31,200 nucleotides of DNA, from positions 1-31,200 of the IMG/VR virus record IMGVR_UViG_3300045988_101844. One strand, 5' to 3'. The notes below the pieces were generated by a model. The model was not told the origin of the DNA. It ran no database searches and saw nothing but the letters and a program-made list of their open reading frames with translations. Origin of the DNA: a virus. Position numbers and translations under genes: made by a program. Below, piece after piece: positions 8-29,652 of the stretch. How positions within the stretch are numbered: the first letter of the stretch is position 1; every line of letters starts with the position of its first letter.

Positions 8-793
8 ATGAATTGGAAACCAACAAACATTAAAGGATATTCAGTTAGTGACGAAGGTCAAATAAAGAATGAACTAACTGGAAAAATATTATCTCCATTT
101 AAGAATAATATGGGATATTATTTAGTAAGCATACAAGATAAAAAGTATCTTGTACATAGATTAGTAGCAGAGGCGTTTTTAAATAAACCTAATAAATGTA
201 ATATAGTAGAACATAAAGATGATGATCCCACAAATAATTGTGTAGATAATCTTATGTGAAGTACTCAGAAATTGAATTTAAATAGGCAAGGAAGGCTTGA
301 AAAGTTAAAAAGGTATTATCAGTCCAATGAATGAAAAGAAGCTAGAAAAAAGGCTTTAGAAACAATGAAAGCAAATGGATTTAAAAAGACTAAATCAGAT
401 AAGCAAAAGGCTAAAGAAGCGGCCAGATTAGATAGAATATCTAAAGAAAGAGAGAATATAAGACCTACTCTCGACCAACAATATGATGCGTTTATTAATC
501 CTTTAATTGATTTACTTAAATCTGGATATAGTTTAAAGAGAGCTGCACAATATTTTGGAATAAATGATACTACTGGCATTACTTATTTTTCTAAAAGATA
601 TTATGAAGAAACAGGAATTAAACTTATTACATATAAGATTAAAAAATCGTCGTTTTCAAATGCAGAAAAATTAATGAATAAAATTAAAGAATTATATAAT
701 CAAGGTTTAACTGTAGAGGAAATAAGTGAAGAAGTAAACAGATCAGTAAATATTGTTAATAAATATATAAAACTATGGAAGATTCATATTTAA
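8..793 (+). CDS. HNH homing endonuclease (NUMOD4-like N-terminus, HNH_3-type core, C-terminal HTH region), 261 aa under code 4
   Basis: Track ORFs 8..259 and 365..793 share a frame. They are joined by in-frame TGA at 257-259 and 332-334 with no TAA/TAG between. Reading TGA as Trp gives HKDDDPTNNCVDNLMW-STQ, the canonical HNH_3 NLxW motif. TAA stop at 791-793. Confidence 0.85.
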
Positions 794-957
794 ATAGAAT
801 TGCGGATATTAAAGAAACAATTAAACAAACAGAAGAGTATATTAAAGAATTAGATAAATGAATACTCGAATGTAAAGAAGCTACTAAAAGATTAGGAGAT
901 ATTATAGATAGAGTATTAGCACAAAGAGATTTTACATTTATTTCAAAATTTGATTAA
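775..957 (+). CDS. hypothetical small protein, 60 aa (code 4)
   Basis: ATG at 775, in-frame TGA at 859-861 (ELDKW-ILECK), TAA at 955-957. Overlaps the upstream gene end by 19 nt. No recognisable domain. Confidence 0.4.
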
Positions 958-959
958 TT

Positions 960-1094
960 ATGGATGATTTTTTATTTAAAAAGCTTAAAGAACTAGAATA
1001 TAGAATAGTTCAATTAGAAAACCAAAACAAAGGGTTAGTTTGGGAAGAAGTAGAAGAAAAACCAGAGATTCCTAACGCAACATATATTGACTAA
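960..1094 (+). CDS. hypothetical small protein, 44 aa
   Basis: ATG at 960, TAA at 1092-1094, coiled-coil-like sequence. Packed 2 nt after the previous ORF. Confidence 0.35.
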   Translation: MDDFLFKKLKELEYRIVQLENQNKGLVWEEVEEKPEIPNATYID

Positions 1095-1095
1095 T

Positions 1096-1236
1096 ATGAA
1101 GTACTTTACATATAAATTATGCTTAAATGGAGTAAATTACGTTTATGTAATTCCCGAAAATAGTAAATTCTTAGTAGATTTACAAACTGGAGAATTAATA
1201 CCTAAAGATGAGAAATTATTTGAGATAATGGAATAA
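1096..1236 (+). CDS. hypothetical small protein, 46 aa
   Basis: ATG at 1096, one nt after the previous stop. TAA at 1234-1236, followed by a terminator hairpin. Confidence 0.35.
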   Translation: MKYFTYKLCLNGVNYVYVIPENSKFLVDLQTGELIPKDEKLFEIME

Positions 1237-1241
1237 ACAAA

Positions 1242-1276
1242 AAGGAGGGTTATTTGCCCTCCTTTTCTTTTTTATT
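1242..1276. terminator. bidirectional rho-independent terminator between convergent modules
   Basis: Stem aaggaggg (1242-1249) pairs with ccctcctt (1257-1264) around a 7-nt loop. A T-run (ttcttttttatt) follows on the plus strand and tttgtttatt follows on the minus strand. The stop of the minus-strand HNH gene (1250-1252) lies in the loop. Confidence 0.7.
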
Positions 1277-1588
1277 AAACCTTTGATAATTACTTACTGC
1301 CGAATGTATAGCTTTATGACATACTGAACATAATGTTATCAAATCTTCCAAATGGTCTTGCTCCTCATATAAATTGTCATACCTCTTATGATGTACCGAT
1401 AATGACCTGTTTCCGCCTTCCTCAACGCATCAATTACAAGTTTGGCAGTGGTAGTTATCCCGCAACAAAACTTGCTCTCTAATAGCCTTAAATTCCTTTG
1501 AGCGGATATATCTCTGGTACTTTAAATATTCTTCACTTCTTACTTTCCTCTTAGTCTTATGAAGCAATTTACTTGATTTGGAATCCAT
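1250..1588 (-). CDS. small HNH endonuclease, 112 aa (code 4)
   Basis: Not in the track because TGA at 1430-1432 splits it. The translation contains DNYHCQTCN[W]CVEEGGNRSLSVHHKRYDNLYEEQDHLEDLITLCSVCHKAIH, which fits the C..C / HH / N / C..CH..H pattern of an HNH nuclease. TAA at 1250-1252. Confidence 0.75.
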
Positions 1589-1590
1589 AA

Positions 1591-2043
1591 TTATATAATA
1601 GTAAATTTCTGTCGTCTTTGCATCCCGTCTTTATTCTTTAATCCCAAGTGTATTCAACTAGCTATACCATTCCTAGGCCTTTCATATATCAACTGGTCGA
1701 AATCAAATTCTTCAATAGCTTCAGCAATCCAACTTTGGAATACTTTCATATTACCATTAATTGGAGATATATCTGCTGCATACCCTGTTAAATGAGCAGA
1801 AGTTGAGGATCCTCCTACTGCTTTATTAAGCTCCTTATTCCTAAAACCAGAGGAAATCCTGATGCCTGCATTGCCAAGCTGATTGTCATCACAATACTTT
1901 GCCCATCTCTCTCTTATTGGGTCTAAAAGCTTCTCGACCAACTCTATCAGGTGCTCTGTTATACTCTCATCTGGAGTGTTATTTATATGCTTAATTGAAG
2001 CAGTATCAGATCTTGTTAATTCTTCGAGTGTGAAATACTTCAT
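1591..2043 (-). CDS. endolysin, peptidase M15-type cell-wall peptidase, 150 aa (code 4)
   Basis: Track ORF 1654..2043 (SGFRNKELN, SAHLTGYAADI) ends at TGA 1654-1656. Read-through gives NGIAS-W-IHLGLKNK..., restoring the M15 C-terminal W-x-H motif. TAA at 1591-1593, 2 nt from the next gene start. Confidence 0.85.
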
Positions 2044-2202: not shown

Positions 2203-2859
2203 TTATATTTTATTTAAAATTATACTTATCTGTATTCCAGCTCTTCTTAGATGTACTCAAGTATCATAAGGCATAGGTGTATCACAGAATGACAAACCTA
2301 AAATGCCAATATCTTTATCCTCAGTCTTTAAATAAAATACTGCTATTTCATTCACTCTGTTGGATTTAAATGCATAATATAATCTTGGATCATCTGCTTC
2401 TAAACTGTCTATATTACCAAACCATCCATCATTCTTAGAAAACTCTATAATTGAAGTATAGTCAGATAACAGGAAATCTTTATAATGGCTACTTACAGAT
2501 CGTATTCCTGGTTTAACTTCCTCGGCATTCATTACTCCATAAGTAAATGGAAGTCCTCCTAATCCAGTAGTTCCATTATGATATTCAATAACCCAAGCTC
2601 TATCAGCATTGGTACTTTGAAGCAATTCTTTAAGCTTATATTTAATCTTTAAAGTTGCTTCATTTCTTGCAATAGTTTTAGAATTGTGAGTTTGTTCAAT
2701 ATAGGTTACAACCTTATTATAAACAATAGAGGGATTAAGTGTAATAACCATTACATAGGATATAAATATTAATCCAATCCCTGCTTTAAATATCTTTAGT
2801 AATCCATATTTATCAACCCATTCTAATACTTTGCCAAACCAATTTAATTTATTTTCCAT
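2203..2859 (-). CDS. N-terminally membrane-anchored protein of unknown function, 218 aa (code 4)
   Basis: Track ORF 2257..2859 ends at TGA 2257-2259. Read-through (PYDT-W-VHLRRAGIQISIILNKI) reaches TAA 2203-2205, 1 nt from the holin start. One hydrophobic helix near the N-terminus (GLLKIFKAGIGLIFISYVMVITL). Confidence 0.6.
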
Positions 2860-3286: not shown

Positions 3287-3787
3287 TTATATATATTTAA
3301 ATGTTAATCCGCTAGCAGTTTTAGCTCTATGAGTTAATACATTAGATATAGACGTTCTAGTTATATTTAATTGTTTAGCTGCCTCCTTAACTGATTTATA
3401 ATAATTTCCATTACTATCAATAATAGGTCTAAATTTAGCTTCCGATATATGCTTTTTATGCCCTTCAGATAACTTACGACCTTTTACACTACCACCTTCT
3501 CCTCCAGGTTTTAAATTTAAACATCTGGCATCACAACTTCAGCAATCTGAAAGAATATCTTTCTCCCGTATACAATTATTATACTCAGTATCATTAAATT
3601 CTAATATAACCTTATTGTATGTTACTCCCTCTATTTTGCCATATCTTTGATAATATTTTTTAAGTATTATACCTGAACCTGCATAATCATCATTATAAGG
3701 ATCATTAGATGTTTTATGTTTACCTATATAATATTTACCTTTTAGATTACCGACTAGTGGCTGTATTTCATAAATATAGTAGGTCAT
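3287..3787 (-). CDS. GIY-YIG homing endonuclease, 166 aa (code 4)
   Basis: Track ORF 3539..3787 (YYIYEI...GKYYIGKH, GIY-YIG N-terminus) ends at TGA 3539-3541. The same frame continues W-SCDARCLNLKPGGEGG...NGNYYKSVKEAAKQLNITRTSISNVLTHRAKTASGLTFKYI (typical C-terminal DNA-binding module). TAA at 3287-3289. Confidence 0.85.
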
Positions 3788-3789: not shown

Positions 3790-4479
3790 TTACTTACTCT
3801 TTTTATTATTACTTGAAGGGAAATCATAAGCTCTTTGAAGAGGTCCCTCTCCAGGTTTAACGCTCCATCCTTTACCTCTTGCTCCACCAAGCCAAATATT
3901 GCAAGATGAGCTAGAGTAAAGATTAGGAAACATATCCTTTAATGGCTTATATGTATAAAGCTCAGGGAATTCGTTATAATATGTAATTATAAAGTCCTGT
4001 AAACGAGTCTTAAAGAAATCCGCCTTATCTCTATAATACTTCTTAATTTGATTTACTTGACTTGCTTCAGCAGCAATATCTTTCTCATCATCAGTTCTCA
4101 TAACTCCAAAATTACCAAGCTTATAAGATATAGGAATTACTATCTCGCTAAGTACTTGATAAAGTAAATAAGGCTGAACATAATAGTCTAATAGCTCTTT
4201 ATATCTGTAGTTATCAGAATCATCAATAGAATCACTTGGAAGTGGCTCAGGAGGTTCTATTGGATGAACTGGAGTATGAGGATCAATCCAATTAATACAT
4301 TTCTTTTGTAATGCTTCTAATAGCTTAGTACCAATAGTTGACTGAAGCTCTACATCTTGGGCACTTGTGATGGCTGCTTGTAAATATTTACCCGATATAT
4401 TGTTATCTAATGTAGAATTTGACTTTATATAGTCTTCTGAAATAAGCAGTACATTTCTATAGTTAAGTTGTTCCATCAT
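3790..4479 (-). CDS. hypothetical structural protein, possible head-tail adaptor, 229 aa
   Basis: Intact track ORF with TAA stop, sitting between two homing endonuclease genes downstream of the portal. The adaptor call rests on position and weak gp6-like N-terminal character only. Confidence 0.5.
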   Translation of the reverse strand: MMEQLNYRNVLLISEDYIKSNSTLDNNISGKYLQAAITSAQDVELQSTIGTKLLEALQKKCINWIDPHTPVHPIEPPEPLPSDSIDDSDNYRYKELLDYYVQPYLLYQVLSEIVIPISYKLGNFGVMRTDDEKDIAAEASQVNQIKKYYRDKADFFKTRLQDFIITYYNEFPELYTYKPLKDMFPNLYSSSSCNIWLGGARGKGWSVKPGEGPLQRAYDFPSSNNKKSK

Positions 4480-5071
4480 AAATAAATTTATTGTTTTTAT
4501 AAGGTCTATTTTCTTTTAAAGCTAAATATAATCCAGAACGTTCTCCATTAACTGATTTAACAGCTTCTTTCATTGAATTATATCTTGCAATAAAATTCCC
4601 ATTCATATCAAATCTTAATATAGGCTTAACTCTAGTAATTCGTCCTTTGGAAGCATTTCCAATTTTAATAAGTGTTTCCAAAGTATAGATTCCTTTCTTT
4701 CCTTTATTCCAGGGTGTTTTACCTTTTTTAGAATTTGACATTTTTGCTCTACTCTCATTAGAAAAAGAATACCCGTATGTACCTTCTCCTCCTGATGTTA
4801 TATTGTAACCATTTTCAGGAGTATTTGTTTTATATTTATGTATCAATATTCTCTCTAACGTCTTAGCGCAAGCTTCTGGTAAATTATCTTTAATTATGAT
4901 ATGTTCAAATCCATCTCAGCTATATTTTTGTATCGCTTTATAAAAGTAAGCTTGAGTAGAGTATCCATATCCATTTTTTCACCTAGCTTGCGCACTTTGT
5001 CCAGTAATGCCAAAATATAGCTTATTGTTATACTTATTTATATGGCAATAAACAGTATAATTATTCAACAT
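4463..5071 (-). CDS. GIY-YIG homing endonuclease with NUMOD3-like repeats, 202 aa (code 4)
   Basis: Track ORF 4463..4846 is only the C-terminal part. The same frame upstream is open to ATG 5071 through TGA at 4979-4981 and 4916-4918. This gives YCHINKYNNKLYFGITGQSAQAR[W]KNGYGYSTQAYFYKAIQKYS[W]DGFEHIII, with both TGA at Trp positions conserved in the family. Overlaps the portal end by 11 nt and the next gene start by 17 nt. Confidence 0.9.
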
Positions 5072-6152
5072 TTTGTTTGCTATCTTCTTGTCCATTTGGA
5101 GTTAAGCTAAAAGGAGTTATAGTTATTGAACCTTTCATTCCAAATATCTTATCAAATGTATCTACTATTTCGACCTGAATTGGTCTAACTACTGTACGAT
5201 TATAAAGTTTAAAAGCTTCATTAAATTCTTGTTCGTTGAATCCACTTGAGTAGTTAAGGCCAAAAAGTACACTATTAGCTCTAAATGCGCAGAATATCTG
5301 TTCTCTTGTTCTATCAGATAAAGCACTATATTTCTCATCAAAATCATCAGAATCTAAACGCTCAATAGTAGTCTTATTTGTTTCATCATCATTATATGAA
5401 ATAAGAACTCTACCAGCATTTTGAAATCCTGAGAATTTCTCATTAATATTCATCTCAATCTCTTCTTTAACTTCATCTGTAGGCTGTCCATTATTAAAGT
5501 TAATGATAAGATTGCCCATAAATCCGTTATGAAGAGAATTTAGATGGAACTCATTAATATTCTTCTCAGTTTCGCAAGATAGGATAGCTGCACCATAAAC
5601 AGGGACTGGATATACTTTTCTTGTTATATAGCCCTTATTATAAACAACACTTGTAGGATTATCATCTGAATAATTAAATTTTGGATATTTGATAGCTTTA
5701 ATAGACCAAGCAGACCAATCATCGGCATAATAGAATACTTCATTCTTTTCATCAGAACGAATCTTCATAAAGTCAAGATGATATATTTCTGAAACTCTAC
5801 CTACCATATCTCTAATTATTTGTAAAGCATATCCTCCAAAAATCATCTTATCTTTAGATACTTTACGCATAATATCCATAATAGTCTCACCTTTCTTATT
5901 TACAGTTACTTCAAATCCTGGTGCATTACATATAACATCATTACCAACAATAAAGTCAGCAGTACCATTAATGATAGATTGAAGAGTAGCTACATTTAAA
6001 TATAAATCCCATAAATATACAGGATAGCGATTATCTTCACCCCAAGAAATATAGTCCTTACCTCTAACTTTACCTTCTACTGGCAATACGATGTTTGATA
6101 CAATTACTGGATCAATTGCACTTAATTGTACTTTTGTTTTATTTTCGCTCAT
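5061..6152 (-). CDS. portal protein (HK97-family-like), 363 aa
   Basis: Track ORF 5061..6209; I prefer the start at ATG 6152 (MSENKTKVQ). Portal-like pattern: FSGFQNAGRVLISYNDDE...IERLDSDDFDEKYSALSDRTREQIFCAFRANSVLFGL. No TGA codons. Confidence 0.7.
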   Translation of the reverse strand: MSENKTKVQLSAIDPVIVSNIVLPVEGKVRGKDYISWGEDNRYPVYLWDLYLNVATLQSIINGTADFIVGNDVICNAPGFEVTVNKKGETIMDIMRKVSKDKMIFGGYALQIIRDMVGRVSEIYHLDFMKIRSDEKNEVFYYADDWSAWSIKAIKYPKFNYSDDNPTSVVYNKGYITRKVYPVPVYGAAILSCETEKNINEFHLNSLHNGFMGNLIINFNNGQPTDEVKEEIEMNINEKFSGFQNAGRVLISYNDDETNKTTIERLDSDDFDEKYSALSDRTREQIFCAFRANSVLFGLNYSSGFNEQEFNEAFKLYNRTVVRPIQVEIVDTFDKIFGMKGSITITPFSLTPNGQEDSKQNVE

Positions 6153-6531
6153 AAGCCGTATATTTGTTTTGTTTATCGTATTGGTATTTATTATTCTGAT
6201 AATCTCCAACTCTTATTAGTCCTGAACTCAATACAGGTATAGGTTTACCAGCAACTAATATCTGTGTTCCTGTAGTAAGAGTATTTTCATAAGTTACCAG
6301 AATAACTGGATTACCATATAGCTCTGACTGCATAGGATTATTTACATCTACAATTACTTCAAGTTTATTTGGATTACTAAACAGAATATACTGATATTCA
6401 CCATCAGACATATCATCAGATAATGTAATATCAAACTTATAGTAGATATTTTCAGCATAATTCTGATTTTCAAGGTCAAATAAATAAACTTCCTTTGTAA
6501 TCGTATTCTGCATTAACAAAGTATAGTTCAT
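6139..6531 (-). CDS. hypothetical protein, 130 aa
   Basis: Track ORF 6139..6540 begins at TTG; the first ATG is at 6531. It is the first gene after the terminator at 6601..6632. No recognisable domain. Confidence 0.55.
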   Translation of the reverse strand: MNYTLLMQNTITKEVYLFDLENQNYAENIYYKFDITLSDDMSDGEYQYILFSNPNKLEVIVDVNNPMQSELYGNPVILVTYENTLTTGTQILVAGKPIPVLSSGLIRVGDYQNNKYQYDKQNKYTAYERK

Positions 6532-6638: not shown

Positions 6639-7625
6639 CTATGCAGAAGCTAATGTCCAGTTCTTAGATGTAGCTAAAGCTTTTTGCTCTTCTGTAAGAG
6701 CTCCATAAACAGTAGAATTAAATGTAATAGTTTGTGTAGAAGTTCCAGTTAAATCATTTGCTTTATTTAAGATATTATCGACTGACTCAGCATTAAGATT
6801 TGGTAATCACTGCAAATTAAGATCTACCTTTAAATTTGTAATCCCTCCAAATGTAGTTATAGAAGTCATTTCTCCACCTGTTATTAATTCGCTAAATGTA
6901 TAGTTATCAACAGCTGTCAAATCTATTTCTGGAATTTTAGTTAGATTTGTACTACCAGTCCAAAAGAATTGTTCTAATGATAATGTACTAGAATTATATC
7001 CATTGAATACTATTTTATCACATATTTCGTTGCCATTATATCCATACATAAAGTAAACTAGTGATGCATTAATTCCATTTTTAATATTTACTGTAATTGT
7101 ACCAGTAGTACTTATGTTTGCATAATATAAAACAAAAGGAATATATAATTCTGTTATATTAAAAACTATATCTTGCAGAGTTGAATTTGGAGATATAGTG
7201 CTTTCAAACATACTTGAAGGGTCATTAAACTGTTGACCTGAATTTATTGCTATTTGGTGAATATTAGCTTGTTTAAAACTCTCTTTTGCTAAATAAGAAA
7301 CAGAAGTATCTAATTTACTACCTAAATCAATATAGCTATCAGGTAAGTTACTATTGTTAAATAAATATGAAATATCTGCAGTACTTGGATTTATAGTTCA
7401 ATTTAGTTTCTCAAATTGACTATGATGCATATTACAATAAGCAAACGTTAATCCTGTTTTAGTAACATCAAACACCTCACCTCCAGAAATCTGTCCTATC
7501 TTATCTGCATAGCTTCTAAAGGTATCTGAATCTGATACAGCAACACCTTTAGCTACAATAGCATCTTTAATGGCACTCTTAGTACCTTCAAGATACGTTA
7601 ATTTATCAGAAATTGTATTTGCCAT
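6639..7625 (-). CDS. tail fibre-associated protein, paralog C (conserved fibre N-terminus; C-terminal module shared with the BspA/DUF285-like paralogs), 328 aa (code 4)
   Basis: Track ORFs 7398..7625 and 6807..7211 share a frame. TGA at 7398-7400 and 6807-6809, and the gaps have no TAA/TAG. The C-terminus NILNKANDLTGTSTQTITFNSTVYGALTEEQKALATSKNWTLASA parallels the C-termini of 12261..13355 and 8507..9424. TAG stop at 6639-6641. Confidence 0.75.
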
Positions 7626-8262: not shown

Positions 8263-8499
8263 TTATTTAACTTTTATTGATTCTTCATACTCTTTTGAAG
8301 CTGTTTTAGCAGTTTCTTTATATTCAGAATCCTGCTCTAATGTTATCTCTCTTAAATGTTCTAAATCACAATTTAATGGACAAATACACTCTTTAAATGA
8401 GTTATACCCTTTAATATCCATTTCGTCTTTATAGTTAGTAAGAAGCATATTATCTTCAGGTTTAACTACTTTATACTTTTCTTTAATTTCAATTTTCAT
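8263..8499 (-). CDS. small protein, paralog of 12040..12261 (possible fibre assembly factor), 78 aa
   Basis: Intact track ORF. Shares the Y-K-D/E-x-x-DIK-x-Y...CPL pattern and the same cassette position with 12040..12261. Confidence 0.55.
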   Translation of the reverse strand: MKIEIKEKYKVVKPEDNMLLTNYKDEMDIKGYNSFKECICPLNCDLEHLREITLEQDSEYKETAKTASKEYEESIKVK

Positions 8500-8506: not shown

Positions 8507-9424
8507 TTAATTAGAATATGATATTGTTCATCCTTTAGAAACTATCTGGGCTTTTTGATCTTCAGTTAAAGAGTCAAAGATTACTTTATTAAAAACAATA
8601 GTAGGATTCTTAGATGCGTCTGAATATAGTCCTTCTATTATATTATTTATAGATTGAACAGTAAGTGCAGGTAATCCTCCTAAATGCAATGTATATGTAC
8701 TCATAGTGACTCCCTTCCCAATATTTGTAAAACCTCCAATATCTGTAAGTAGGGTGAAATCTTTAGATTCTTGATCTCTCTCATCATCAGTTCTGAATAA
8801 ATCAGAAAAATTACTCCAGTTACTTGCATCATATTGCGGAACAGATTGAAGCCTATAACAGTACCTAAACATTTGAGAAACACTAACTTTTTTAGTTGAA
8901 GAAAAAGTTATCTGAGGTGCTGTTTTTAATTGTTCTGAATATCTAAATAATCCAGTACAATCTACAGCATTAGATAGATCTAATGGATCTATTTCTGTAG
9001 CTCCAATTCCAGATAAGGCACCATACATCCTCTTTTTACCAATAAAAATATCAGGTAATATATATGTTAAACTACGACATCCAGCAAATAAATAATACAA
9101 ATCAGTATCTGTATTTTCAGTAATATATTTTTGAGCATCTATAGATGTAGTTAACTGATACTGTAATGATGAATCTGCTCTAAATATAGAAGTTTTTGGG
9201 TTAGATGAAGTAGGATTTATATATCAACTAATAACATCTGGATTATTACATTCTGTAATTATTGAATTTACACTTCCTAAATATTGTCTTGCAACTGCTT
9301 TACGAAAAGTATCATCTATAAATGGAATTGGAGGACAAGGCCAGACTTTGGTACTGCCAACATAAATGGCAGTACCTTGTCTGTTACCTACATAAAATGC
9401 TTTTAAATTATCTCGAATATTCAT
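8507..9424 (-). CDS. BspA/DUF285-like leucine-rich-repeat tail protein, paralog B, 305 aa (code 4)
   Basis: Track ORFs 9224..9424 and 8528..9100 share a frame. TGA at 9224-9226 and 8528-8530. LRR-like FAGCRSLTYI and SQMFRYCYRLQSVPQYDASNWSNFSDLF. The C-terminus LTEDQKAQIVSKG[W]TISYSN has TGA where the paralogs have TGG. TAA at 8507-8509. Confidence 0.75.
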
Positions 9425-13963: not shown

Positions 13964-14001
13964 ATAATTTCAATCTTATTTAAAGTTAAACTCTATTGAA
14001 A

Positions 14002-14907: not shown

Positions 14908-14929
14908 AATTTTATAAATAATTTAATAA

Positions 14930-22000: not shown

Positions 22001-22376
22001 AATCTCCTAATCCTCCATATAAAGTAATATTATAAGTAATGACAGCTTGTTTTATAGATATACTATTTAATTGCATATATCCAGATTCAACTAAATAGCC
22101 ATTATTATAGATTCCAAAATCAACTCGTTTTGAAGGATCAAAATATACTCCAGAGAAATTACCTTCTTTTATATGGAGAAATCTATCTAACTTATAAATC
22201 TCTCCAAAAATCTTATTATTATTCTTTGTGCCAGGTATAGAAATCGTTTTACTAAACGAGTTCTTGACTATAGTGGGGTTTTGGAAATCCTCAACTGTAT
22301 AAGTTATAGGAAGACTAATTCCCTCACTACAGTCAACCTCTTTATTTGCAATAAATAATTTAATATTCTTTCTCAT
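19020..22376 (-). CDS. large tail/tail-tip (host-specificity-like) protein with C-terminal BACON-like domain, 1118 aa (code 4)
   Basis: Track ORFs 21846..22376, 21510..21809, 20184..20516 and 19020..19295 share one frame. Eleven in-frame TGA at 21846, 21510, 21495, 20901, 20523, 20184, 20031, 19863, 19785, 19461 and 19449. I translated all gaps and found no TAA/TAG. TAA at 19020-19022 overlaps the next ATG (TAATG). Confidence 0.8.
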
Positions 22377-22377: not shown

Positions 22378-24558
22378 TTATTTTCTATATTTATCTTGAG
22401 AAGCTTCTACATTAATTGTATAATAGAACTTGTTTTTACCTTGATTAGTATAAGTTTTATATTCGCAATTTGTATCAGTAATCAATACTGGAGTGATAGT
22501 ATTATCTTTAAGATTATGCAAATATACTTTAGTACTCTCAATTAGATTAAACATCTTAGAAGCTTGAATATCATTTAAATAACCAGTATAAAGAACCCAG
22601 CTTGAAGTTATAGTATTCAAATACTTATTTCTTGCAAACTCTTGTGATGTATTTAATACCTTACGAGTATATGTTTCAGATTTAATCTCATCATTCTTTT
22701 TAACATTACCCTCAACAAGTAATGAATCCCATCCACCTGCTGAATTAGTATAATATAATACATAATCTTTACCTGTAGTATCTATATCATATCTAATCTG
22801 TCTATCACTAATATTTCCGTCTTCTACAAATCCTACTATTAAATAGCTCCCACAAGGCCATAGTTTATTGCTTAAATCTTCTGTATATGTATACCCATTA
22901 ATTCCAGAATTTAAACTAATATCCATAGCAGATTGTACTCCATCCATATAAAAGAATCTATTAATAACTCCAGTTCCAGTTGGTAGAATTCAACTTGATA
23001 CTAAATACTGCCTGGGATCAACTAAACCAGTAATAGGATCACTTAACATAGCGCCTTTAGTTAGATCTCTATCTTTATAACTCCAGTCATTGAAGAAAGT
23101 AATTGGTTTTTCATTTCCACTAGATGTCATCAAAGTAAATGGTTTCAAATATTCTGGAGATATTATAGTTTTAGAAGTATTAAATATAATACCGTTAGAT
23201 AGATAATTTTCAGCAACATTATTTAATAAAAACTCTACTCTATCAGTTTCAGGATATTTATAAGCTTTTCCAGCATAGACCGTATCCCCTGCATAATCTA
23301 AATGATATTCAATAAAATCTGAACTAATAATCTCTTCCCAAACATAATCTTTCCAAATAGGAGATATATCAGATTTAACAGATTGTGTAATATTAATAGA
23401 TAAATTAATAATACTTGAACTATTCTTTATAACAGATACTCCAATAGTTGCTTGTCTAGAAGATAAACCTGAATTTTCTGCAATGTTCAAACTAATAGTT
23501 GCTACACCTTGAGGATTCACAGTTATCTTCTGTCCACTAATCCAACCTACAGGAATGCTAAATACAACATCATCTAAGTTGTTTGAGCCTGTACCAGTTA
23601 TATTTAATGTAGATGCAGTTCAACTTACTTCATAATTAGTATTAGGAATCATTAAAGATGTTGCAGCTTGTTTAATTGGAACTGTAGCTTCAAGATTATA
23701 ACCTCCAGAAGTTGTTGCAGTAACCATTGCACTAAACTCCAAATTATTAGTAGTTTTATTCTCTGGAACAGTTAATACAAAATAGTTATCAACACTATCC
23801 TTTTTAATATTACTAGCTTGTGGACAGGTAACATTAAATGAAGTAATAGTTTCTTCTGTTTTAGTTGTACTTAAATGAAATTCTTCAGTAACAAAAGCAG
23901 CTGCTCCATAAGTTCCAGAAGAAGGAGTTACTACTAACTTTAAATCTTCAGGAGTATTACTCTTTTCAATCTTAAAGCCATAACTATAACTAATAAATTT
24001 ATTAGTATCATAATAAGCCCCTAATTGGATAGTTGCAGTTAAATCAGTATTTCATTGAGTATTAGCTCTTACTGTAACTTTAAACTTAATAGAGCAAGAA
24101 TCTCAATCCAGAACTTCCATATTAACTAAAGCTGTAGCATTAACAACTGCTGCATCTCATTTAATAATATCTGATCTATTTAATATATACTCTACTGTAT
24201 ATTCTCCACCAGTATTTGGTACTTTAATGGTGCCATTAGCAGGATAATATCCAGGAGCTTTACTATGTAAATTAATTGGTAAATCTTCCTCTAATAAAGC
24301 AGTAGTAATGCCTCTAGGATAAAAATGAAATACAGTAGAAGAATCAGTAGTTATTGTTGTAGGAGATAAAAATTGTATTGTACATCCTTCTTTACTTGGA
24401 TCCTGTATAGTTACATTTAAAGGCCCTTCTTCAGTATAATCATCTCCCCAAGTCCAATAATCATATTCTCCAGTAATTCCCCATCCAGGATTATTCCATT
24501 TAACAGGAAAACTCCTTGATGCATTATATATTCCTAATTTACTTGGTATAAATGCCAT
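22378..24558 (-). CDS. tail/virion surface protein with BACON-like/Ig-like repeats, 726 aa (code 4)
   Basis: Track ORFs 24157..24558, 22990..23520 and 22378..22947 share one frame. TGA at 24157, 24103, 24052, 23620 and 22990. I translated the 636-nt gap 23521..24156 and found it open. BACON-like segment VGWISGQKITVNPQGVATISLNIAENSGLSSRQATIGV. Confidence 0.8.
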
Positions 24559-24560: not shown

Positions 24561-25049
24561 TTAAAAGTTTTTAAATAAATAATAATCTACTTGTCCTTGT
24601 AAGTCTTTAGTTATAGCATCATCAAGAAGTTCCATATAGTTGTTCTCTATATATTCTAGAGTATTAGCAAGTGGATGTTTTCCTTGAGTTCCTTGAAGAT
24701 GTATCTTTCTTCCAATTAAATATGCAAGTTGATCTACAGTAGGTAACTTGCCATTATAAGGTCTTGGAATTACTGGCTTAGTTTTAATCCAACTCTTTAT
24801 ATCAGATAATGGAGGAAATTTACCAGCAGCTCTGCCTTCTTCAACATATTCTCAATAATCTAATAAGCTAAAATTAACCTCATAGTCTCCATCCTGAGTC
24901 TCAACTATATAGTTTAAACTATTACCTAATGCTCCAGTGTCATCAGATCTGGTTTTAACTAATTCCTGTCTATAAAGAGAAATTATAAGATCTCCTCACT
25001 TCCTTAATAGCTCACTTAAATTTGAGAACTTTAATTCTTGAATATTCAT
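24561..25049 (-). CDS. hypothetical virion protein, possibly HK97 gp10-like tail-completion protein, 162 aa (code 4)
   Basis: Absent from the track because TGA at 24996-24998 and 24852-24854 split it. ATG 25049, TAA 24561-24563. Contains LLDY[W]EYVEEGRAAGKFPPLSDIKSWIKTK. The functional call is weak. Confidence 0.6.
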
Positions 25050-25313: not shown

Positions 25314-25955
25314 CTATTCAGATAATTCAGCTTCATTTTTGAGTAAAAGGATTAATCGTCTCGTCTGTATTAAGCTCTCCAGAAGTTTCCTCCTTTCCAG
25401 TTTGTCCTTGGTTTTCCTTAGTCTCTTCTTCATCTCCCTTTCCGAAGAGTGTAGGGTACTCAGCGTTGATACTTGCAATAAGTTTACAAAAAAAAACATT
25501 ATGTCTGAAAATATATCTATTGTTAGATGGGTATTTAAGAATTCTGCCTCATCAATAGGGTCATAATCTTCTCCATACTTCTTTCCATTAGGTAGCAAGA
25601 AACAAGCTGCTAGATTAGGCATAAAATCATCATACTGCTTATAAAAATTCTGAAAGTCAATATATTGACTGGCCGTCATCTTATTAACATTAAAAAAGAC
25701 TTTATATTCTTTATTACCAATATTATAAGTAGTTTCTGGAGTTTTTGGCTTATATGGAGTCTCTATAAATTTAAGATTATTTATAAATTCTTGCAGCTTG
25801 TTTACTTCCATATTAGTTATATCTTCTATAGGTATATCACTAAGTACGGATACCATAGCTAAATTCATATCTAATTCATTTTCCCAGTCTTTTCGTATTA
25901 TCTCAAACAGTCTTTTATAATGAGATAAATCCATTTCATTCCAATTCTTTATCAT
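25314..25955 (-). CDS. hypothetical protein, 213 aa
   Basis: Intact track ORF. Its ATG shares a base with the TerL TAA (TAATG). TAG stop at 25314-25316. Basic, helical C-terminus. No confident family assignment. Confidence 0.6.
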   Translation of the reverse strand: MIKNWNEMDLSHYKRLFEIIRKDWENELDMNLAMVSVLSDIPIEDITNMEVNKLQEFINNLKFIETPYKPKTPETTYNIGNKEYKVFFNVNKMTASQYIDFQNFYKQYDDFMPNLAACFLLPNGKKYGEDYDPIDEAEFLNTHLTIDIFSDIMFFFVNLLQVSTLSTLHSSEREMKKRLRKTKDKLERRKLLESLIQTRRLILLLKNEAELSE

Positions 25956-27238
25956 TATTTAATTGCAATATTATAAGTTCCTTTATTTGTATTTAAAGCA
26001 TCATAAGCTAACATTAAAGATATACAAGTATCATCATTAAATCCAGATGGAGCATTATATGATACATTTCCAGTCTTTGGATTATAACTGGCTTCATATA
26101 GTCTTAATTCATTTAATAGTTTATCATCCTTTAAAATACCAATCTTTTCGTTTTCTAATGCCGCTTGTAGCTTATTTACAATAGCTGCCTTAGACTTATT
26201 AGTAGTTAAAAACTTAACTATCCGTAATTTAGGATTCCTTTTTACAAGAATATCATAAAACACTGAACCTATTGAGTTTTGTTCGACTTGAACTATCTTT
26301 ATAAATCCCTGATACTCAGTAAATATATTTGTCAGTAAATCAACTTGTTCTGTTGGAGTTTTGTCGTTAAAATACTTTATAAAGACCATCTGCCCATTTT
26401 CATTTAAAGCTGTAATACAAGTATAGTCTTTACCAGAACCAGTAGCCCAGTCAACTCCAATATAGAGATTATGATATTCAGGTTTTTTATCAATTATACA
26501 GTTAGCTATATTATTAAATAGGCAACCATCATCATCTGCAAACTCTCCAAGATATTCAGTTCTAAATTTATTTTTGGAGGTTGTAAGGCGATACATTTCA
26601 AGTTTATCCTCACTTAACAGCATAGAAGTATCTTCTAATGCTCAATCAAAGGATTGATAATATTTACTAAAATTACCATCAAAGCCCTTTTTAAAGCATT
26701 CATAAAAGAATCCTTCTCTAAACCTTGGAGTACTAATTATAAGTATTGGAGCATTCCATACATCAGCGATAGGTGTTAAAATTTCGTATACTTCATCTGA
26801 TATATAAGCTGCTTCGTCAATTACTAATATTCCACTAACTGTAAATCCTCGTAATGAATCTTTTTGCTCAGCAGATTTAAATAGTATTTCACTCCCATTA
26901 GTAAATTCAATCTCAAGCAAAGATTCATTCTTTTTCTTAATAATATCTGTGCCATCTAATGCCTTTACTAACTCTTTAAATATCTTTCTGGAGTTAGTAA
27001 GAGTTGGTTCAACAATACAGCTAATACTTCCAGGATAGTTAATTGAAAATCGTAATAGTTCATTTTCTGCCATAAAGGATTTACCACATTGTCTCTTTGC
27101 TTTTACAGTAAATATTTTTCCAGACCTATAAGAGTGCTCTAAAGCAGTATGTACCTTTAATTGATAGATAAATGGGCTATATCCTTTATATATTTTTGTC
27201 ATTGTTAATTGGATCTCCAAATTTAAACTGGACTTCAT
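25955..27238 (-). CDS. terL: terminase large subunit, 427 aa (code 4)
   Basis: Track ORFs 26642..27238 (ATPase; Walker A KAKRQCGKSF, Walker B ILVIDEAAY) and 25955..26623 (nuclease half; IGVDWATGSGKDYT, GFNDDTCISL) share a frame. They are joined by one TGA at 26642-26644 (YQSFD-W-ALEDTS). An alternative start at ATG 27202 would cut the overlap with terS to 17 nt. Confidence 0.9.
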
Positions 27239-27629
27239 TATTCTGAATAGCTACAATAGTCTCAGGTTGATTTAATCCAAACATACTATTTATAGTCTTA
27301 ATAATCTCATTTGCAGCTCTAATATCTCCCTTACTAATAGCAGTATCCAGTAATGATTCCAATCTTGATAATTGTATATGTCTAAGATTTTTTATAAGGT
27401 TATCATTCTTTTCAGCAATTATCTTATAAGCTTCTCCAATATATCTTGCAGCCGTTGATTGGCTTACATTATATTTACTTTGAAGTTCTTCACTTACTTT
27501 ATTCCTTGACCATCCTTTATTAAATAACCTTGCAGCATAAAGATATTTAGTCTTTACTTCGTCTATTTGTTCCTTTTCTACCTCTGCCTTTTTCGGTCTC
27601 CCTACTTTCTTCTTTATTTGCTCCTTCAT
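27186..27629 (-). CDS. terS: terminase small subunit-like DNA-binding protein, 147 aa
   Basis: Track ORF 27186..27635 starts at TTG; ATG is at 27629 (MKEQIKKKVGRPKK). N-terminal HTH-like segment, position immediately upstream of TerL. Confidence 0.6.
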   Translation of the reverse strand: MKEQIKKKVGRPKKAEVEKEQIDEVKTKYLYAARLFNKGWSRNKVSEELQSKYNVSQSTAARYIGEAYKIIAEKNDNLIKNLRHIQLSRLESLLDTAISKGDIRAANEIIKTINSMFGLNQPETIVAIQNNEVQFKFGDPINNDKNI

Positions 27630-27879
27630 CCTCAATAGTTTTTAGTTTTTCAACATATTCAAAGTAGTAAACTCCAAGTCTCTTTATAAGGTTAAGAACA
27701 CAAGTTCCGCAGTTTATATTCATTTTATATGGCTGCTCTATTAGTTCCTCATAAATAGCTCTCATCCTTTCAGTATCTTCTTTTTGGATGTTACGACAAT
27801 AGTTAGCTCTAACAGCACATTTAAACCTATTATCGAATTTACTTAAATATTCATACTGTTCTTTTGTTAATTCTTTCAT
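27547..27879 (-). CDS. hypothetical Cys-containing protein, 110 aa
   Basis: Intact track ORF with CAVRANYC and CGTC pairs (possible zinc binding). The last 83 nt overlap terS in another frame. Confidence 0.45.
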   Translation of the reverse strand: MKELTKEQYEYLSKFDNRFKCAVRANYCRNIQKEDTERMRAIYEELIEQPYKMNINCGTCVLNLIKRLGVYYFEYVEKLKTIEDEGANKEESRETEKGRGRKGTNRRSKD

Positions 27880-27901
27880 TTTTATTTAAAATATATTATT
27901 T

Positions 27902-28228
27902 TTAATCCAAGTATTTATAAACTATATCTATTAGTTTGGTAATCATATCTTTAATTAGAATCATACAATCCTTTATAACTGGAGTCATAAATGCGATTAA
28001 AGCAATATATGCAATCATTAAGAAGCTTAATTGTCCAGTTACTAAGATATATAGTAAACTTGCCCACCAAGTACAGCATAGAGAACATCCAAATAAAGGT
28101 ATAGACCAATCAGTATATTTAACTCCAGGATATAGTTTACTTCATACCCATCTATTTGCCTTGTCCATAGCTCCAGATAAATCAATACAGAAGACAAGAA
28201 TAATAGCTATAAAAAGTATGCTTAACAT
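27902..28228 (-). CDS. small multi-pass membrane protein, 108 aa (code 4)
   Basis: Absent from the track because TGA at 28142-28144 splits it. ATG 28228, TAA 27902-27904. Sequence MLSILFIAIILVFC...ANRWV[W]SKLYPGVKYTDWSIPLFGCSLCCTWWASLLYILVTG. The plus-strand track ORF 27936..28250 is its shadow. Confidence 0.6.
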
Positions 28229-28467
28229 AATCTCTCTCTTATTTGTTTAATAAATCTCTGAATAGTCGTATGACTAATTCCCAGAATCTTCCCAACTTCT
28301 CTATAACTTCGATATTCAGCATATAAGATAATTATGGTCTTATCTGCTCTATTTAATGCCTCTCATTTCGGATAAATTGCAAGTAATCTATCATCCATCT
28401 CTGTAAAGGTATCTATTTCAAAGTTATACTCAATTAATAAATCATCAATATTAATCTTCTGCTTCAT
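28222..28467 (-). CDS. small HTH protein (sigma-70 region 4 / LuxR-like), 81 aa (code 4)
   Basis: Absent from the track because of TGA at 28363-28365. ATG 28467, TAA 28222-28224. C-terminal HTH: RADKTIIILYAEYRSYREVGKILGISHTTIQRFIKQIRERL. Confidence 0.55.
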
Positions 28468-28966
28468 AATACTTTCATTTAAATCCTTTTGAAGTTAATT
28501 GTCTTCCTTTTAAACAGGCAATAATGTTTGATATAATAAATCCATTTCTCTTTAATTCATTTATTGAAGGTCATACTTTAATAATATTGTTATCTATATC
28601 TAACTGCACAACTCGCTTGGAACTTTTATTATTCTGGCAGTTTTTAACAAAATTATTAATTCTATTGCCGTAAGTAAGATTATAAGACCTTGTACATCAT
28701 TCTAAGTTTTCTATAACATTATTGCATTTATTTTCATCAATATGATTTATTTCACAATAACTGTTAGGATTTGGAATAAACGCTTCTGCTACTAGCCGAT
28801 GTATATAAAAATTTTTTCTACCTTGTTTATTATATAAACAAACAAAAGAATATCCACTATTGGATCGCATAGGTTTAATAACTCCTCTAACACTTTTAAC
28901 TCTGCCTAAAGTGCTAATCTGGTAGTTCGGGTAATTCGTTATATTCTTCCAGGTCTCCATCATCAT
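28451..28966 (-). CDS. HNH homing endonuclease (NUMOD4-like N-terminus, HNH_3 core), 171 aa (code 4)
   Basis: Track ORF 28697..28966 ends ...NHIDENKCNNVIENLE at TGA 28697-28699, completing NLEW-CTRSYN. Further TGA at 28571-28573 and 28475-28477 (KGFK[W]KYYEAED). TAA at 28451-28453. Confidence 0.85.
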
Positions 28967-29228
28967 TAATTTTATCTGTTATAAAAATATCATAATATCG
29001 TTTATATGCATAATAGTATCTGCTATTCTTACTGAACCAGTTGTTTTTAAACACTCTTACAATTCAGTATTTTAATTCATTTTTGGCCAATAAACTATTT
29101 AATTTGGCATTATCTGTTTCTAGTAAAGCTAGAAGGCAAATTTGAAAACAATCATCATCCATCCTAAATTTAACCTTTAGCTCTAAGCAGAATTCATAAT
29201 ATTTGGTAAGTATTTCATTATTCGTCAT
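28914..29228 (-). CDS. hypothetical protein, 104 aa (code 4)
   Basis: Absent from the track because of TGA at 29064-29066. ATG 29228, TAG 28914-28916. Overlaps the start of the HNH gene by 53 nt. Confidence 0.45.
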
Positions 29229-29652
29229 TTCTTATATAATTACTAAATTCCGTATCTACATCTATTTTAATTGCTTTCTTTAAAGATAACTCTGTTTTTA
29301 AAGAGTATTTATATTCTCCTCCAAAATCAGTTGTACTTCTTCCATATTTCATTGAATCTTTAATAAAAGCTCTTTTTACATCTTTATAAATATAAACTCC
29401 ATCATCAAATATAATGACTAATATAGAGTTACATTTACTAAGTATATCAAACTTATCCCTGTTTATAATTGTAGTTGGATATTTATCGGATTTAAATCTT
29501 CTCCTTTTAACTTCAATTATATAATCTATATTATTCCAAGTAAATGTTCCATCATATCTGGAATAGTCGTCTTTACATCATTCTATTTCTATATTATATT
29601 TATCTTTAAATAGATTCTTTATAAAGACTAGGCTTCTTATATCTGTTTTCAT
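29218..29652 (-). CDS. putative PD-(D/E)XK-fold nuclease, 144 aa (code 4)
   Basis: Absent from the track because of TGA at 29578-29580. ATG 29652 (TAATG overlap with the upstream stop), TAA 29218-29220. Motif YDGTFTWNNIDYIIEVKRR fits D...(D/E)xK. The assignment is tentative. Confidence 0.5.

What the first reader, a model, noticed from the sequence alone, without database searches (positions are those of the whole stretch)
8..29652. TGA is a sense codon (Trp) throughout the window: code-4-type stop-codon reassignment in a tailed phage
I located 45 in-frame TGA codons inside 21 of the 41 CDS called here.

Joining fragments: joining same-frame track fragments across TGA turns roughly 35 short pieces into long, tightly packed genes. 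Examples are 16252..19020 (922 aa, 4 TGA), 19020..22376 (1118 aa, 11 TGA), 22378..24558 (726 aa, 5 TGA), 9426..12038 (870 aa) and TerL 25955..27238. I translated every joined gap by hand, and none contains TAA or TAG.

Conserved Trp positions: TGA coincides with family-conserved Trp in several domains:
- HNH NLMW/NLEW (257, 28697)
- GIY-YIG ARWKNGYGY and KYSWDGFEH (4979, 4916)
- peptidase M15 SWIHLG (1654)
- XkdF VIWDAIKAGKFKGFSIEG (15681)
- BACON-like NIPWELGWYS (19461, 19449)

Internal control: three paralogous tail proteins end in KNW-ILA (TGG, gene 12261..13355), KNW-TLA (TGG, gene 6639..7625) and KG-[TGA]-TIS (TGA at 8528-8530).

Stops: all 41 CDS end in TAA (38) or TAG (3), never TGA. 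The code-4 gene ends also recreate the 0-2 nt spacing and TAATG stop/start overlaps seen elsewhere in the operon.
Basis: partly seen in the sequence, partly recalled or inferred. Interest (0 to 1): 0.95.

Follow-up and report, generated by a model that had tools for sequence, protein, structure and literature searches.

The report
Gut phage reads TGA as tryptophan
This is an essentially complete 31 kb genome of an uncultured human-gut phage that uses the stop codon TGA as a tryptophan codon. That kind of recoding is already well documented in gut phages, so it is a solid but ordinary example, with one open point: the phage carries no tRNA of its own to read TGA.

Summary

**Coding gain**
- Reading TGA as sense raises coding density from 74% (54 fragments) to 94% (36 genes).
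- The longest TAA/TAG-free frame is 1128 codons, against 194 or fewer in shuffles.

**TGA means Trp, not Gly**
- In about 100 related loci, window TGA codons align to TGA (460), TGG (256), Tyr/Phe codons (124) and Gly codons (6).
- In 20 relatives with no in-frame TGA, they align to Trp in 58 of 129 cases, against a 1.2% Trp background.

**Machinery and host**
- The window is the whole contig, about 57 bp short of a circle.
- It encodes no tRNA, release factor or Trp-tRNA synthetase, and neither do its relatives.
- Expression signals point to a Bacteroidota host that uses the standard code: no Shine-Dalgarno sites, and conserved TTTG...TAnnTTTG promoters. An M15 peptidase whose nearest cellular homologue lies in a Bacteroidales-like contig argues against a wall-less code-4 host.

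TGA-to-Trp recoding in small gut phages, mostly without a detectable suppressor tRNA, is already published (Borges et al.; Cook et al.). This is a new member of a known kind, and what actually decodes TGA remains unknown.

The parts
8..793 (+). Homing-endonuclease-like gene (NUMOD4 + HNH_3 + C-terminal HTH). In-frame TGA at 257-259 and 332-334.
   Evidence: Pfam domains. TGA positions. A relative has TGG at codon 84.
775..957 (+). Small ORF (60 aa). In-frame TGA at 859-861.
   Evidence: Under code 11 it stops at 861.
1250..1588 (-). HNH endonuclease. TGA at 1430-1432.
1591..2043 (-). Peptidase M15_3, the putative endolysin. TGA at 1654-1656 corresponds to a nearly invariant Trp (S-W-x-H).
   Evidence: Code-11 calls of relatives are cut to 127-129 aa exactly at this codon.
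2203..2859 (-). Membrane-anchored protein of unknown function. TGA at 2257-2259. The two TGA at 2866-2871 lie upstream of the true start, which is the ATG in a TAATG overlap.
3287..3787 (-). Endonuclease-like gene with an I-HmuI NUMOD-like C-terminus. TGA at 3539-3541.
4463..5095 (-). GIY-YIG (weak match) + NUMOD3 endonuclease. TGA at 4979-4981 aligns to the Trp of the R-W-x-x-H motif of I-TevI. TGA at 4916-4918 is an aromatic position in relatives.
6639..7625 (-). Tail or receptor-binding paralogue ending ...KNWTLASA. TGA at 7398-7400 and 6807-6809.
8507..9424 (-). Tail or receptor-binding paralogue. TGA at 9224-9226 and 8528-8530. The second matches the paralogous W of ...KNW-ILA and ...KNW-TLA.
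9426..12038 (-). Tail fibre protein, 870 aa (Phage_tail_C). TGA at 11556-11558.
15546..16139 (-). XkdF-type prohead protease. TGA at 15681-15683. W in 19 of 19 standard-code relatives.
16252..19020 (-). Tape-measure-like protein, 922 aa. TGA at 18025, 17551, 16651 and 16471.
19020..22376 (-). Tail protein, 1118 aa, with 11 in-frame TGA from 21846 to 19449. The C-terminus gives a sub-threshold BACON_2/BACON match.
22378..24558 (-). Tail protein, 726 aa, with 5 in-frame TGA at 24157, 24103, 24052, 23620 and 22990.
24561..25049 (-). Neck or tail-completion-like protein. TGA at 24996 and 24852. The second is W in 8 of 8 standard-code relatives.
25955..27238 (-). Large terminase. TGA at 26642-26644, inside the Terminase_6N match.
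27902..29652 (-). Early-region genes that carry in-frame TGA: 27902..28228 (TGA 28142), 28222..28467 (28363), HNH 28451..28966 (28697, 28571, 28475), 28914..29228 (29064) and 29218..29652 (29578).
   Evidence: Family-wide TGA shares.
29652..30926 (-). The first ORFs after the two early promoters, all TGA-free: 30180..30926, 29903..30082 and 29652..29933. The last has 0 TGA against 36 TGG across the family.
30128..30158 (-). Promoter-like site of Bacteroidetes type (TTTG-N-TAnnTTTG), upstream of the early operon.
   Evidence: The same element occurs 3-4 times in the homologous control region of relatives.
31131..31161 (-). Promoter-like site of Bacteroidetes type, upstream of 30180..30926.
13439..15532 (-). 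Abundant virion genes that avoid TGA: major capsid 14002..14907, scaffold 14930..15532 and 13439..13963.
   Evidence: Family counts are 1/182, 0/28 and 1/124 TGA among Trp codons. Window Fisher test p = 0.008.

Best explanation
**What it is.** The window is the whole 31,200 bp contig of an uncultured tailed phage from the human gut. It is a circular or circularly permuted genome about 57 bp short of closure. The phage writes part of its tryptophan codons as TGA.

**Shown**
- TGA is read through in 21 of about 41 genes.
- The amino acid is Trp.
- TGA and TGG interchange freely between close relatives.
- The trait is fixed in a clade of more than 35 sequenced genomes of about 29-33 kb.
- The closest relative with no in-frame TGA (L038) contains no TGA at all, neither in frame nor as a stop. 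This fits the published route in which low GC content first removes TGA stops and TGA then reappears as a sense codon.

**Inferred**
- The host is a walled Bacteroidota (probably Bacteroidales) bacterium that uses the standard code. The phage therefore belongs to the known class of alternatively coded gut phages, not to phages that simply share a code-4 host.
- The decoding agent is not a canonical phage tRNA. None is present in the complete genome or in any relative, and no release factor or TrpRS is encoded.
- Decoding must therefore come from the host, from a co-resident element, or from an unrecognised phage factor.
- TGA is under-used overall: 39% of Trp codons, against 63-88% A-ending for other NNR pairs. 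It is almost absent from the most abundant virion genes and from the first ORFs after the early promoters. This suggests decoding is costly, limiting or delayed.
For: **Coding gain and chance control:**

**Trp identity:**

**Independent assemblies (JGI, ENA, Logan, NCBI TPA) carry the same genes:**

**Genome completeness**
- The contig length is 31,200.
- The window end and start lie about 57 bp apart in L079 and L081.

**No tRNA**
- ARAGORN found none in the window or in the family loci. The only two tRNAs detected (tRNA-Leu in L050 and L063) are in distant, non-recoded relatives.
- Rfam at E <= 1 found none.
- Relaxed ARAGORN gave only artefacts.
- No UCA anticodon-arm hairpin lies in any intergenic gap.
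- No translation-related family appeared in the Pfam or PHROGs scans; a few small and tail ORFs were not scanned.

**Host signals**
- 0 of 36 genes has a Shine-Dalgarno motif.
- The only two TTTG-N17-21-TAnnTTTG matches both sit at the heads of the early operons.
- That promoter element is conserved across the family.
- Sigma-70-type sites are not enriched.
- The M15 peptidase has a 53% identical homologue in contigs with Mfa-like fimbrillin and HU-HIG genes.
- There is a sub-threshold BACON match.
- The IMG sample is a human faecal co-assembly.

**Codon-use pattern:**

**TGA-free relative L038:**

**Literature**
- Small code-4 gut phages exist, and only 35% carry a TGA suppressor tRNA (bioRxiv 10.1101/2021.08.26.457843).
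- A second survey found 15% (PMC11210395).
- 51% of genes here carry in-frame TGA. That lies inside the published 26-71% range for recoded phages of standard-code hosts and well below the roughly 90% seen when phage and host share a code.
Against: - The host is not identified. MAG bins holding distant relatives are contradictory (Clostridia, Lachnospiraceae, Bacteroidaceae) and consist of phage-sized contigs.
- The published late-gene switch model does not fit cleanly. TGA also occurs in five genes of the early region, and no switch machinery is encoded, so how 11 TGA in one gene are read in a standard-code cell is unexplained.
- The two promoter matches in the window are not by themselves more than chance (2 observed, 1.46 expected). 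The argument rests on their position and their conservation.
- No protein-level data exist for this phage. To my knowledge, experimental validation of phage recoding so far covers TAG-to-Gln only (PMC9523058).
Confidence: 0.85

Rival explanations
1. The phage simply shares the code of a code-4 host (Mycoplasmatales or an unrecognised UGA=Trp gut bacterium), so no switch is needed.
For: - No suppressor tRNA, release factor or TrpRS is present in a complete genome.
- TGA occurs in early as well as late genes.
- TGA and TGG exchange freely between close relatives.
- Most cultured code-4 phages are Mycoplasma or Spiroplasma phages (PMC11210395).
- Low GC content of 30%.
Against: - The phage encodes a peptidoglycan peptidase (M15_3) with a conserved active-site region, which has no use against a wall-less host.
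- Its nearest cellular homologue lies in a Bacteroidales-like contig.
- Bacteroidetes-type promoters are present and Shine-Dalgarno sites are absent.
- TGA makes up only 39% of Trp codons and occurs in 51% of genes, unlike host-matched recoding.
- The family is abundant in human faecal assemblies, where no common code-4 lineage is known. The 2026 survey lists only Mycoplasmatales, a few endosymbionts and one Patescibacteriota family.
Confidence: 0.08
2. TGA encodes glycine (code 25), and the host is an Absconditabacteria or Gracilibacteria bacterium.
For: - Low GC content.
- Such hosts occur in human microbiomes and have code-25 phages (PMC10746230).
- No suppressor tRNA would be needed.
Against: - Window TGA aligns to Gly codons only 6 times among roughly 960 aligned codons across the family.
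- In standard-code relatives it aligns to Gly in 5 of 129 cases, below the 6.7% Gly background, while Trp is enriched about 38-fold.
- Invariant Trp columns of the M15 peptidase, HNH and XkdF are written as TGA.
Confidence: 0.01
3. TGA is a true stop, and the fragments are separate genes, pseudogenes of a decaying element, or assembly errors.
For: Under code 11 the fragments are individually open.
Against: - Fragments stay in one frame with no TAA or TAG for up to 1128 codons, against at most 194 in shuffles.
- Profile matches run across the TGA positions.
- The same architecture is conserved in more than 35 independently assembled genomes, with TGA/TGG exchange at the same columns.
- Essential genes would be broken, including the terminase, protease, tape measure and endolysin.
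Confidence: 0.005
4. The TGA codons are sites of selenocysteine insertion or of occasional programmed readthrough, not a codon reassignment.
For: UGA is the Sec codon and is the leakiest stop in bacteria (general knowledge).
Against: - There are 45 sites in 21 genes, with up to 11 in a single gene.
- No Cys codon ever aligns to a TGA site.
- The sites align to Trp, Tyr and Phe.
- Percent-level readthrough compounded over 11 sites would yield no full-length protein (inference).
Confidence: 0.005

Closest known systems
Alternatively coded (TGA-to-Trp, 'code 4') gut phages of standard-code hosts, as surveyed by Borges et al. (bioRxiv 10.1101/2021.08.26.457843; small clades Garnet, Amethyst and Topaz of 22-34 kb) and Cook et al. 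2024 (PMC11210395)
   Same: - Human-gut origin, low GC content and small genome.
- In-frame TGA aligning to Trp, and TAA-dominated stops.
- Close relatives that lack TGA stops.
- No detectable suppressor tRNA, as in 65-85% of published code-4 genomes.
- 51% of genes recoded, inside the published 26-71% range.
- Homing endonuclease, tail and lysis genes rich in TGA.
   Different: - Membership in a named clade could not be tested, because no reference sequences were held here.
- No integrase is present, unlike the Garnet and Topaz prophages.
- TGA is not confined to the late module: five early-region genes carry it.
- The most abundant virion genes (capsid, scaffold and 13439..13963) avoid it almost completely.
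crAss-like phages (Crassvirales) with TGA-to-Trp or TAG-to-Gln reassignment
   Same: - Bacteroidales hosts, low GC content, no Shine-Dalgarno sites and Bacteroidetes-type promoters.
- BACON-like domain in a tail protein.
- Recoded structural and lysis genes.
   Different: - Those genomes are 90-190 kb podovirus-like phages with their own polymerases.
- They often carry suppressor tRNAs.
- There is no sequence relationship here: the best terminase identity to any cultured phage is 28%.
Mycoplasma and Spiroplasma phages (the code 4 of the host)
   Same: TGA read as Trp with no phage suppressor tRNA.
   Different: This phage has a peptidoglycan peptidase, Bacteroidetes-type expression signals and only partial TGA use.
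Code-25 phages of Absconditabacteria and Gracilibacteria (PMC10746230)
   Same: Dense in-frame TGA, human-associated, no suppressor tRNA needed.
   Different: In those phages TGA means Gly and about 90% of genes are recoded. Here TGA aligns to Trp.

Membership tests
Alternatively coded TGA-to-Trp phage of a standard-code host | Coding density and gene length rise when TGA is read as sense, and only for that codon | tested here: met
   Density 74.2% to 94.1%, and median length 131 to 198 aa. TAG as sense gives no gain.
Alternatively coded TGA-to-Trp phage of a standard-code host | In-frame TGA aligns to tryptophan in homologues | tested here: met
Alternatively coded TGA-to-Trp phage of a standard-code host | TGA is not used as a terminator | tested here: inconclusive
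   All code-4 ORFs end in TAA or TAG with tight spacing. The test is circular, because ORFs were extended through TGA. The two TGA nearest a C-terminus are sense by homology.
Alternatively coded TGA-to-Trp phage of a standard-code host | The host uses the standard code | tested here: inconclusive
   The host was not identified. Indirect signals point to Bacteroidota. MAG bins are contradictory.
Alternatively coded TGA-to-Trp phage of a standard-code host | Phage-encoded code-switch machinery: suppressor tRNA-UCA, RF1 or TrpRS. This is frequent but not universal (15-35% of published genomes). | tested here: not met
   The Pfam and PHROGs scans show no such protein.
Alternatively coded TGA-to-Trp phage of a standard-code host | Recoding is concentrated in late structural and lysis genes, with early genes left in standard code | tested here: inconclusive
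   Tail, lysis and endonuclease genes are TGA-rich, and the first three early ORFs are TGA-free. But five early-region genes carry TGA, and the capsid and scaffold genes avoid it.
Phage of a code-4 host (Mycoplasma/Spiroplasma type) | The host lacks peptidoglycan, so the phage needs no peptidoglycan hydrolase | tested here: not met
   A Peptidase_M15_3 with conserved motifs is present.
Phage of a code-4 host (Mycoplasma/Spiroplasma type) | TGA is used as an ordinary, compositionally favoured Trp codon in nearly all genes | tested here: not met
   TGA makes up 39% of Trp codons, against 63-88% A-ending in other NNR pairs. 51% of genes carry it.
Code-25 phage (TGA = Gly) | In-frame TGA aligns to glycine | tested here: not met
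   Gly in 5 of 129 cases, against Trp in 58 of 129.
Selenoprotein or programmed readthrough | A few sites, aligned to Cys or to gene ends | tested here: not met
   45 sites, none aligned to Cys codons.

The most novel reading that the evidence does not exclude
A complete 31 kb phage of a standard-code Bacteroidales host reads 45 UGA codons as Trp, some of them in early genes, with no tRNA, release factor or synthetase of its own. Decoding would then rest on something not yet described. Candidates are a small phage protein that retargets host tRNA-Trp or disables RF2, dependence on a suppressor supplied by the host strain or by a co-infecting recoded phage, or a widespread gut host lineage whose UGA=Trp code has gone unnoticed.
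Probability: 0.2. Interest if true: 0.75.

Novelty: new member of a known kind. Interest (0 to 1): 0.3.

Why it matters
**Practical value.** Gene callers using table 11 cut this family's endolysin, terminase and tail genes into pieces. Truncated 127-129 aa endolysin calls are visible in public data. Flagging the family as code 4 fixes its annotation.

**Scientific value.** It adds a compact, complete and abundant example to the majority of code-4 gut phages that lack any recognisable suppressor tRNA. With only about 41 genes and many sequenced variants, it is a tractable system for asking what actually decodes UGA in such infections. [quoted passage not shown]

Tried and rejected
1. **The 148 kb IMG/VR contig as a prophage in a host chromosome.** Walking upstream (L074) showed another diverged copy of the same phage genome, so the contig is a chain of related genomes and holds no host DNA.
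2. **Species-representative genome scan for prophages.** It returned only distant relatives (39-61% capsid identity), mostly on phage-sized contigs. One is a probable prophage on a 113 kb Agriterribacter contig. The rest sit in bins of conflicting taxonomy, so the scan was not usable for host assignment.
3. **Relaxed ARAGORN hit 'tRNA-Ser(tga)' at 1190-1270.** Its reverse complement would carry a UCA anticodon, but its 'T arm' is the terminator hairpin after the HNH gene, and the minus strand gives nothing.
4. **Search for a UCA anticodon-arm hairpin in intergenic gaps.** None was found.
5. **Cytidine-deaminase motif search** for a possible CCA-to-UCA editing enzyme. None was found.
6. **Cultured-phage comparison.**
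   - No nucleotide match.
   - No capsid match.
   - Best terminase identity 28%, to Thermus phages.
7. **PDB search for the GIY-YIG gene** returned no hit.
8. **Crude SD-motif density per locus** was too noisy to compare hosts. The per-gene upstream inspection is what counts.
9. **The nucleotide after TGA.** C is rare there across the family, but the counts are not independent and the window alone is not significant.

Full report
**What the window is**

The window has 30.4% GC, and almost all genes lie on the minus strand. Exact look-ups of its proteins give a longest contig of 31,200 bp, so the window is the whole contig. In relatives L079 and L081, the window's last base and its fourth base lie about 57 bp apart, so the genome is circular or circularly permuted and essentially complete.

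A capsid-based scan of IMG/VR returned 54 loci. About 35 come from contigs of 24-34 kb with 88-99% capsid identity, mostly from sample 3300045988. One preprint describes that sample as a co-assembly of human faecal samples. The same proteins occur in ENA, Logan and JGI assemblies and in NCBI third-party virome records labelled Siphoviridae, Caudoviricetes or Bacteriophage sp..

There is no nucleotide or capsid match to any cultured phage record. The best terminase identity is 28%.

With TAA and TAG as the only stops, I obtain 36 large ORFs plus a few small ones. Two apparent TGA at 2866-2871 are removed because they lie before the real ATG of gene 2203..2859. That ATG sits in a TAATG overlap, and relatives carry TAA at the position. 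One TGA is added for the small ORF 775..957. The total is then 45 TGA in 21 genes, as reported.

| Measure | Code 11 | Code 4 |
|---|---|---|
| Genes or fragments | 54 fragments | 36 genes |
| Coding density | 74.2% | 94.1% |
| Median length | 131 aa | 198 aa |

The longest TAA/TAG-free frame is 1128 codons, against at most 194 in 20 shuffles. Making TAG sense gives no gain. Pfam matches to terminase, XkdF protease and HNH_3 run across the TGA positions.

**Which amino acid**

I aligned all code-4 products to about 100 related loci by tblastn and read the subject codon opposite each window TGA.

| Codon in relatives opposite window TGA | Count |
|---|---|
| TGA | 460 |
| TGG | 256 |
| TAT/TAC | 85 |
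| TTT/TTC | 39 |
| GGN | 6 |
| Cys codons | 0 |

In the 20 loci that have no in-frame TGA in the aligned regions, window TGA aligns to Trp in 58 of 129 cases. The background Trp frequency is 1.2%. Tyr appears 18 times and Gly 5 times. The window's own TGG codons give Trp in 208 of 405 cases, so the two codons behave alike.

Individual sites agree:
- HNH codon 90 pairs with the Trp of I-HmuI. Codons 132 and 164 pair with Tyr and Phe.
- Endolysin codon 130 is in a column that is at least 90% Trp, and code-11 calls of relatives end exactly there.
- XkdF codon 153 is Trp in 19 of 19 standard-code relatives.
- GIY-YIG codon 39 pairs with the Trp of the R-W-x-x-H motif of I-TevI.

- The second GIY-YIG site is only aromatic in relatives.
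- BACON is sub-threshold. Nothing is found on the whole protein. On the C-terminal fragment, BACON_2 and BACON are the top hits at E 0.0016 and 0.0061, both below the cut-off.

Glycine (code 25), selenocysteine and 'true stop' readings are therefore excluded at the sequence level.

**No decoding machinery in the phage**

- ARAGORN finds no tRNA in the window or in any locus of the recoded family. The only two tRNAs detected (tRNA-Leu in L050 and L063) belong to distant, non-recoded relatives. Together the family loci cover the whole genome in differently permuted contigs.
- Rfam at E <= 1 finds none.
- Lowering ARAGORN thresholds yields only artefacts. One has a 'T arm' that is in fact the terminator hairpin at 1240-1262.
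- No hairpin with a UCA anticodon loop lies in any intergenic gap.
- The Pfam and PHROGs scans show no release factor, synthetase or tRNA-modifying enzyme, and no deaminase motif is present in any of the 36 proteins. Seven ORFs were not scanned (five of the 36 large ORFs: 8263..8499, 9426..12038, 12040..12261, 14930..15532, 16252..19020; and two small ORFs).

**Host**

The 148 kb IMG/VR contig looked like a possible prophage. It is in fact a chain of diverged genomes of this family. Bins from the species-representative genome scan are contradictory, and most hits sit on phage-sized contigs.

Indirect evidence is consistent:
- None of 36 genes has a Shine-Dalgarno motif.
- The only two matches to TTTG-N17-21-TAnnTTTG sit at the heads of the two early transcription units. 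From general knowledge, this is the Bacteroides primary-sigma promoter form.
- The same element recurs 3-4 times in the homologous control region of nearly all relatives that include that region.
- Sigma-70-type sites are not enriched.
- The phage encodes an M15 peptidoglycan peptidase. Its nearest cellular homologue (53% identity) lies in contigs of about 100 kb beside Mfa-like fimbrillin and HU-HIG genes, which are typical of Bacteroidales.

A wall-less Mycoplasma-type host is therefore unlikely. The known UGA=Trp bacterial lineages are not common gut organisms (PMC13092985).

**Pattern of use**

TGA makes up 39% of Trp codons, while other NNA/NNG pairs are 63-88% A-ending.

| Gene (family-wide counts) | TGA among Trp codons |
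|---|---|
| Major capsid 14002..14907 | 1 of 182 |
| 13439..13963 | 1 of 124 |
| Scaffold 14930..15532 | 0 of 28 |
| Portal 5061..6209 | 12 of 154 |
| Early membrane ORF 29652..29933 | 0 of 36 |
| Tail protein 19020..22376 | 52% |
| Tail fibre 9426..12038 | 95% |
| Early gene 28222..28467 | 78% |
| Early gene 29218..29652 | 52% |

These family counts include related and partly overlapping loci, so they are not independent. In the window alone, abundant virion genes have 1 TGA among 14 Trp codons and the remaining genes have 43 among 99 (Fisher p = 0.008).

The closest relative without in-frame TGA is L038 (67% capsid identity, 28% GC). It has no TGA at all: none in frame across 5262 aligned codons, and none among 19 stop codons. 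This fits the published path in which low GC content removes TGA stops before TGA returns as a sense codon.

**Comparison with what is known**

Borges et al. surveyed 9322 gut phage genomes and found 473 alternatively coded ones, ranging down to 14.7 kb. A quarter were TGA-recoded, mostly to Trp. Their small clades measure 22-34 kb, their predicted hosts are Firmicutes and Bacteroidetes, and only 35% of code-4 genomes carry a TGA suppressor tRNA. Cook et al. found a suppressor in 15% of predicted code-4 phages, and 46 code-4 vOTUs in a human gut virome catalogue.

At least part of the public gene calls for this family already give the full-length 726, 1118 and 922 aa proteins. To my knowledge, experimental proof of phage recoding so far covers TAG-to-Gln only.

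This genome is therefore a new member of a known kind. It departs from the published late-gene switch picture in two ways:
- TGA occurs in early-region genes.
- The most abundant virion genes avoid TGA.

**Verdict**

Novelty is low and interest modest. The one real unknown is what reads UGA, a question this phage shares with most published code-4 gut phages.

Noticed in passing
window 8-793, 1250-1588, 3287-3787, 4463-5095, 28451-28966: Five homing-endonuclease-like genes (HNH_3/NUMOD4, HNH, I-HmuI-like, GIY-YIG/NUMOD3) sit in a 31 kb genome. Their positions differ between close relatives. L065 has an HNH gene between the two large tail genes and a GIY-YIG gene beside the scaffold gene. L074 lacks the HNH gene that in the window lies between 28914..29228 and 28222..28467.
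   Followed up: partly
window 28914-29228 and 28222-28467: Two small adjacent early ORFs. From its sequence, the second looks like sigma-70 region 4 (HTH ...SYREVGKILGISHTTIQRF...), and the first may be region-2-like. They are separate ORFs in different frames in L074 too, so this may be a two-piece sigma-like factor.
   Followed up: partly
window 30960-31100 (minus strand): Two pairs of direct repeats (tcgattcagtaccc x2 and ataataaaagtaatactata x2) and a GC-rich hairpin (gggtttgg...ccaaaccc) lie between the divergent early promoters. This is probably an origin or operator region.
   Followed up: no
L017 / L074 (IMGVR_UViG_3300045988_175865, 148,631 bp): This contig is a head-to-tail chain of diverged genomes of the family. 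Adjacent copies are 70% and 84-97% identical to the window. It is an assembly chimera or concatemer, not a prophage in host DNA.
   Followed up: yes
L038 (IMGVR_UViG_3300029905_000019): This is the closest relative without in-frame TGA (67% capsid identity, 28% GC). It has no TGA at all: 0 in 5262 aligned codons and 0 of 19 stop codons. Its genome would read the same under code 11 and code 4.
   Followed up: partly
family-wide, all in-frame TGA: C is rare as the base after TGA (41 of 1170) compared with after TGG (285 of 2231). The counts are not phylogenetically independent, and in the window alone the figures are 2 of 52 against 9 of 71.
   Followed up: partly
window 6639-7625, 8507-9424, 12261-13355: Three paralogous tail proteins share a conserved C-terminal module (...L(S/T)(D/E)EQKA...K(N/G)W...). 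One has a weak BspA-type leucine-rich-repeat match. They may be alternative receptor-binding proteins.
   Followed up: no
window 1240-1262: A GC-rich hairpin (GGAGGG...CCCTCC flanked by A and T runs) lies between the converging plus-strand module (8-1236) and the minus-strand HNH gene. It is a likely bidirectional terminator. Relaxed ARAGORN mistook it for a tRNA arm, and Rfam gave a weak sraA match there.
   Followed up: yes
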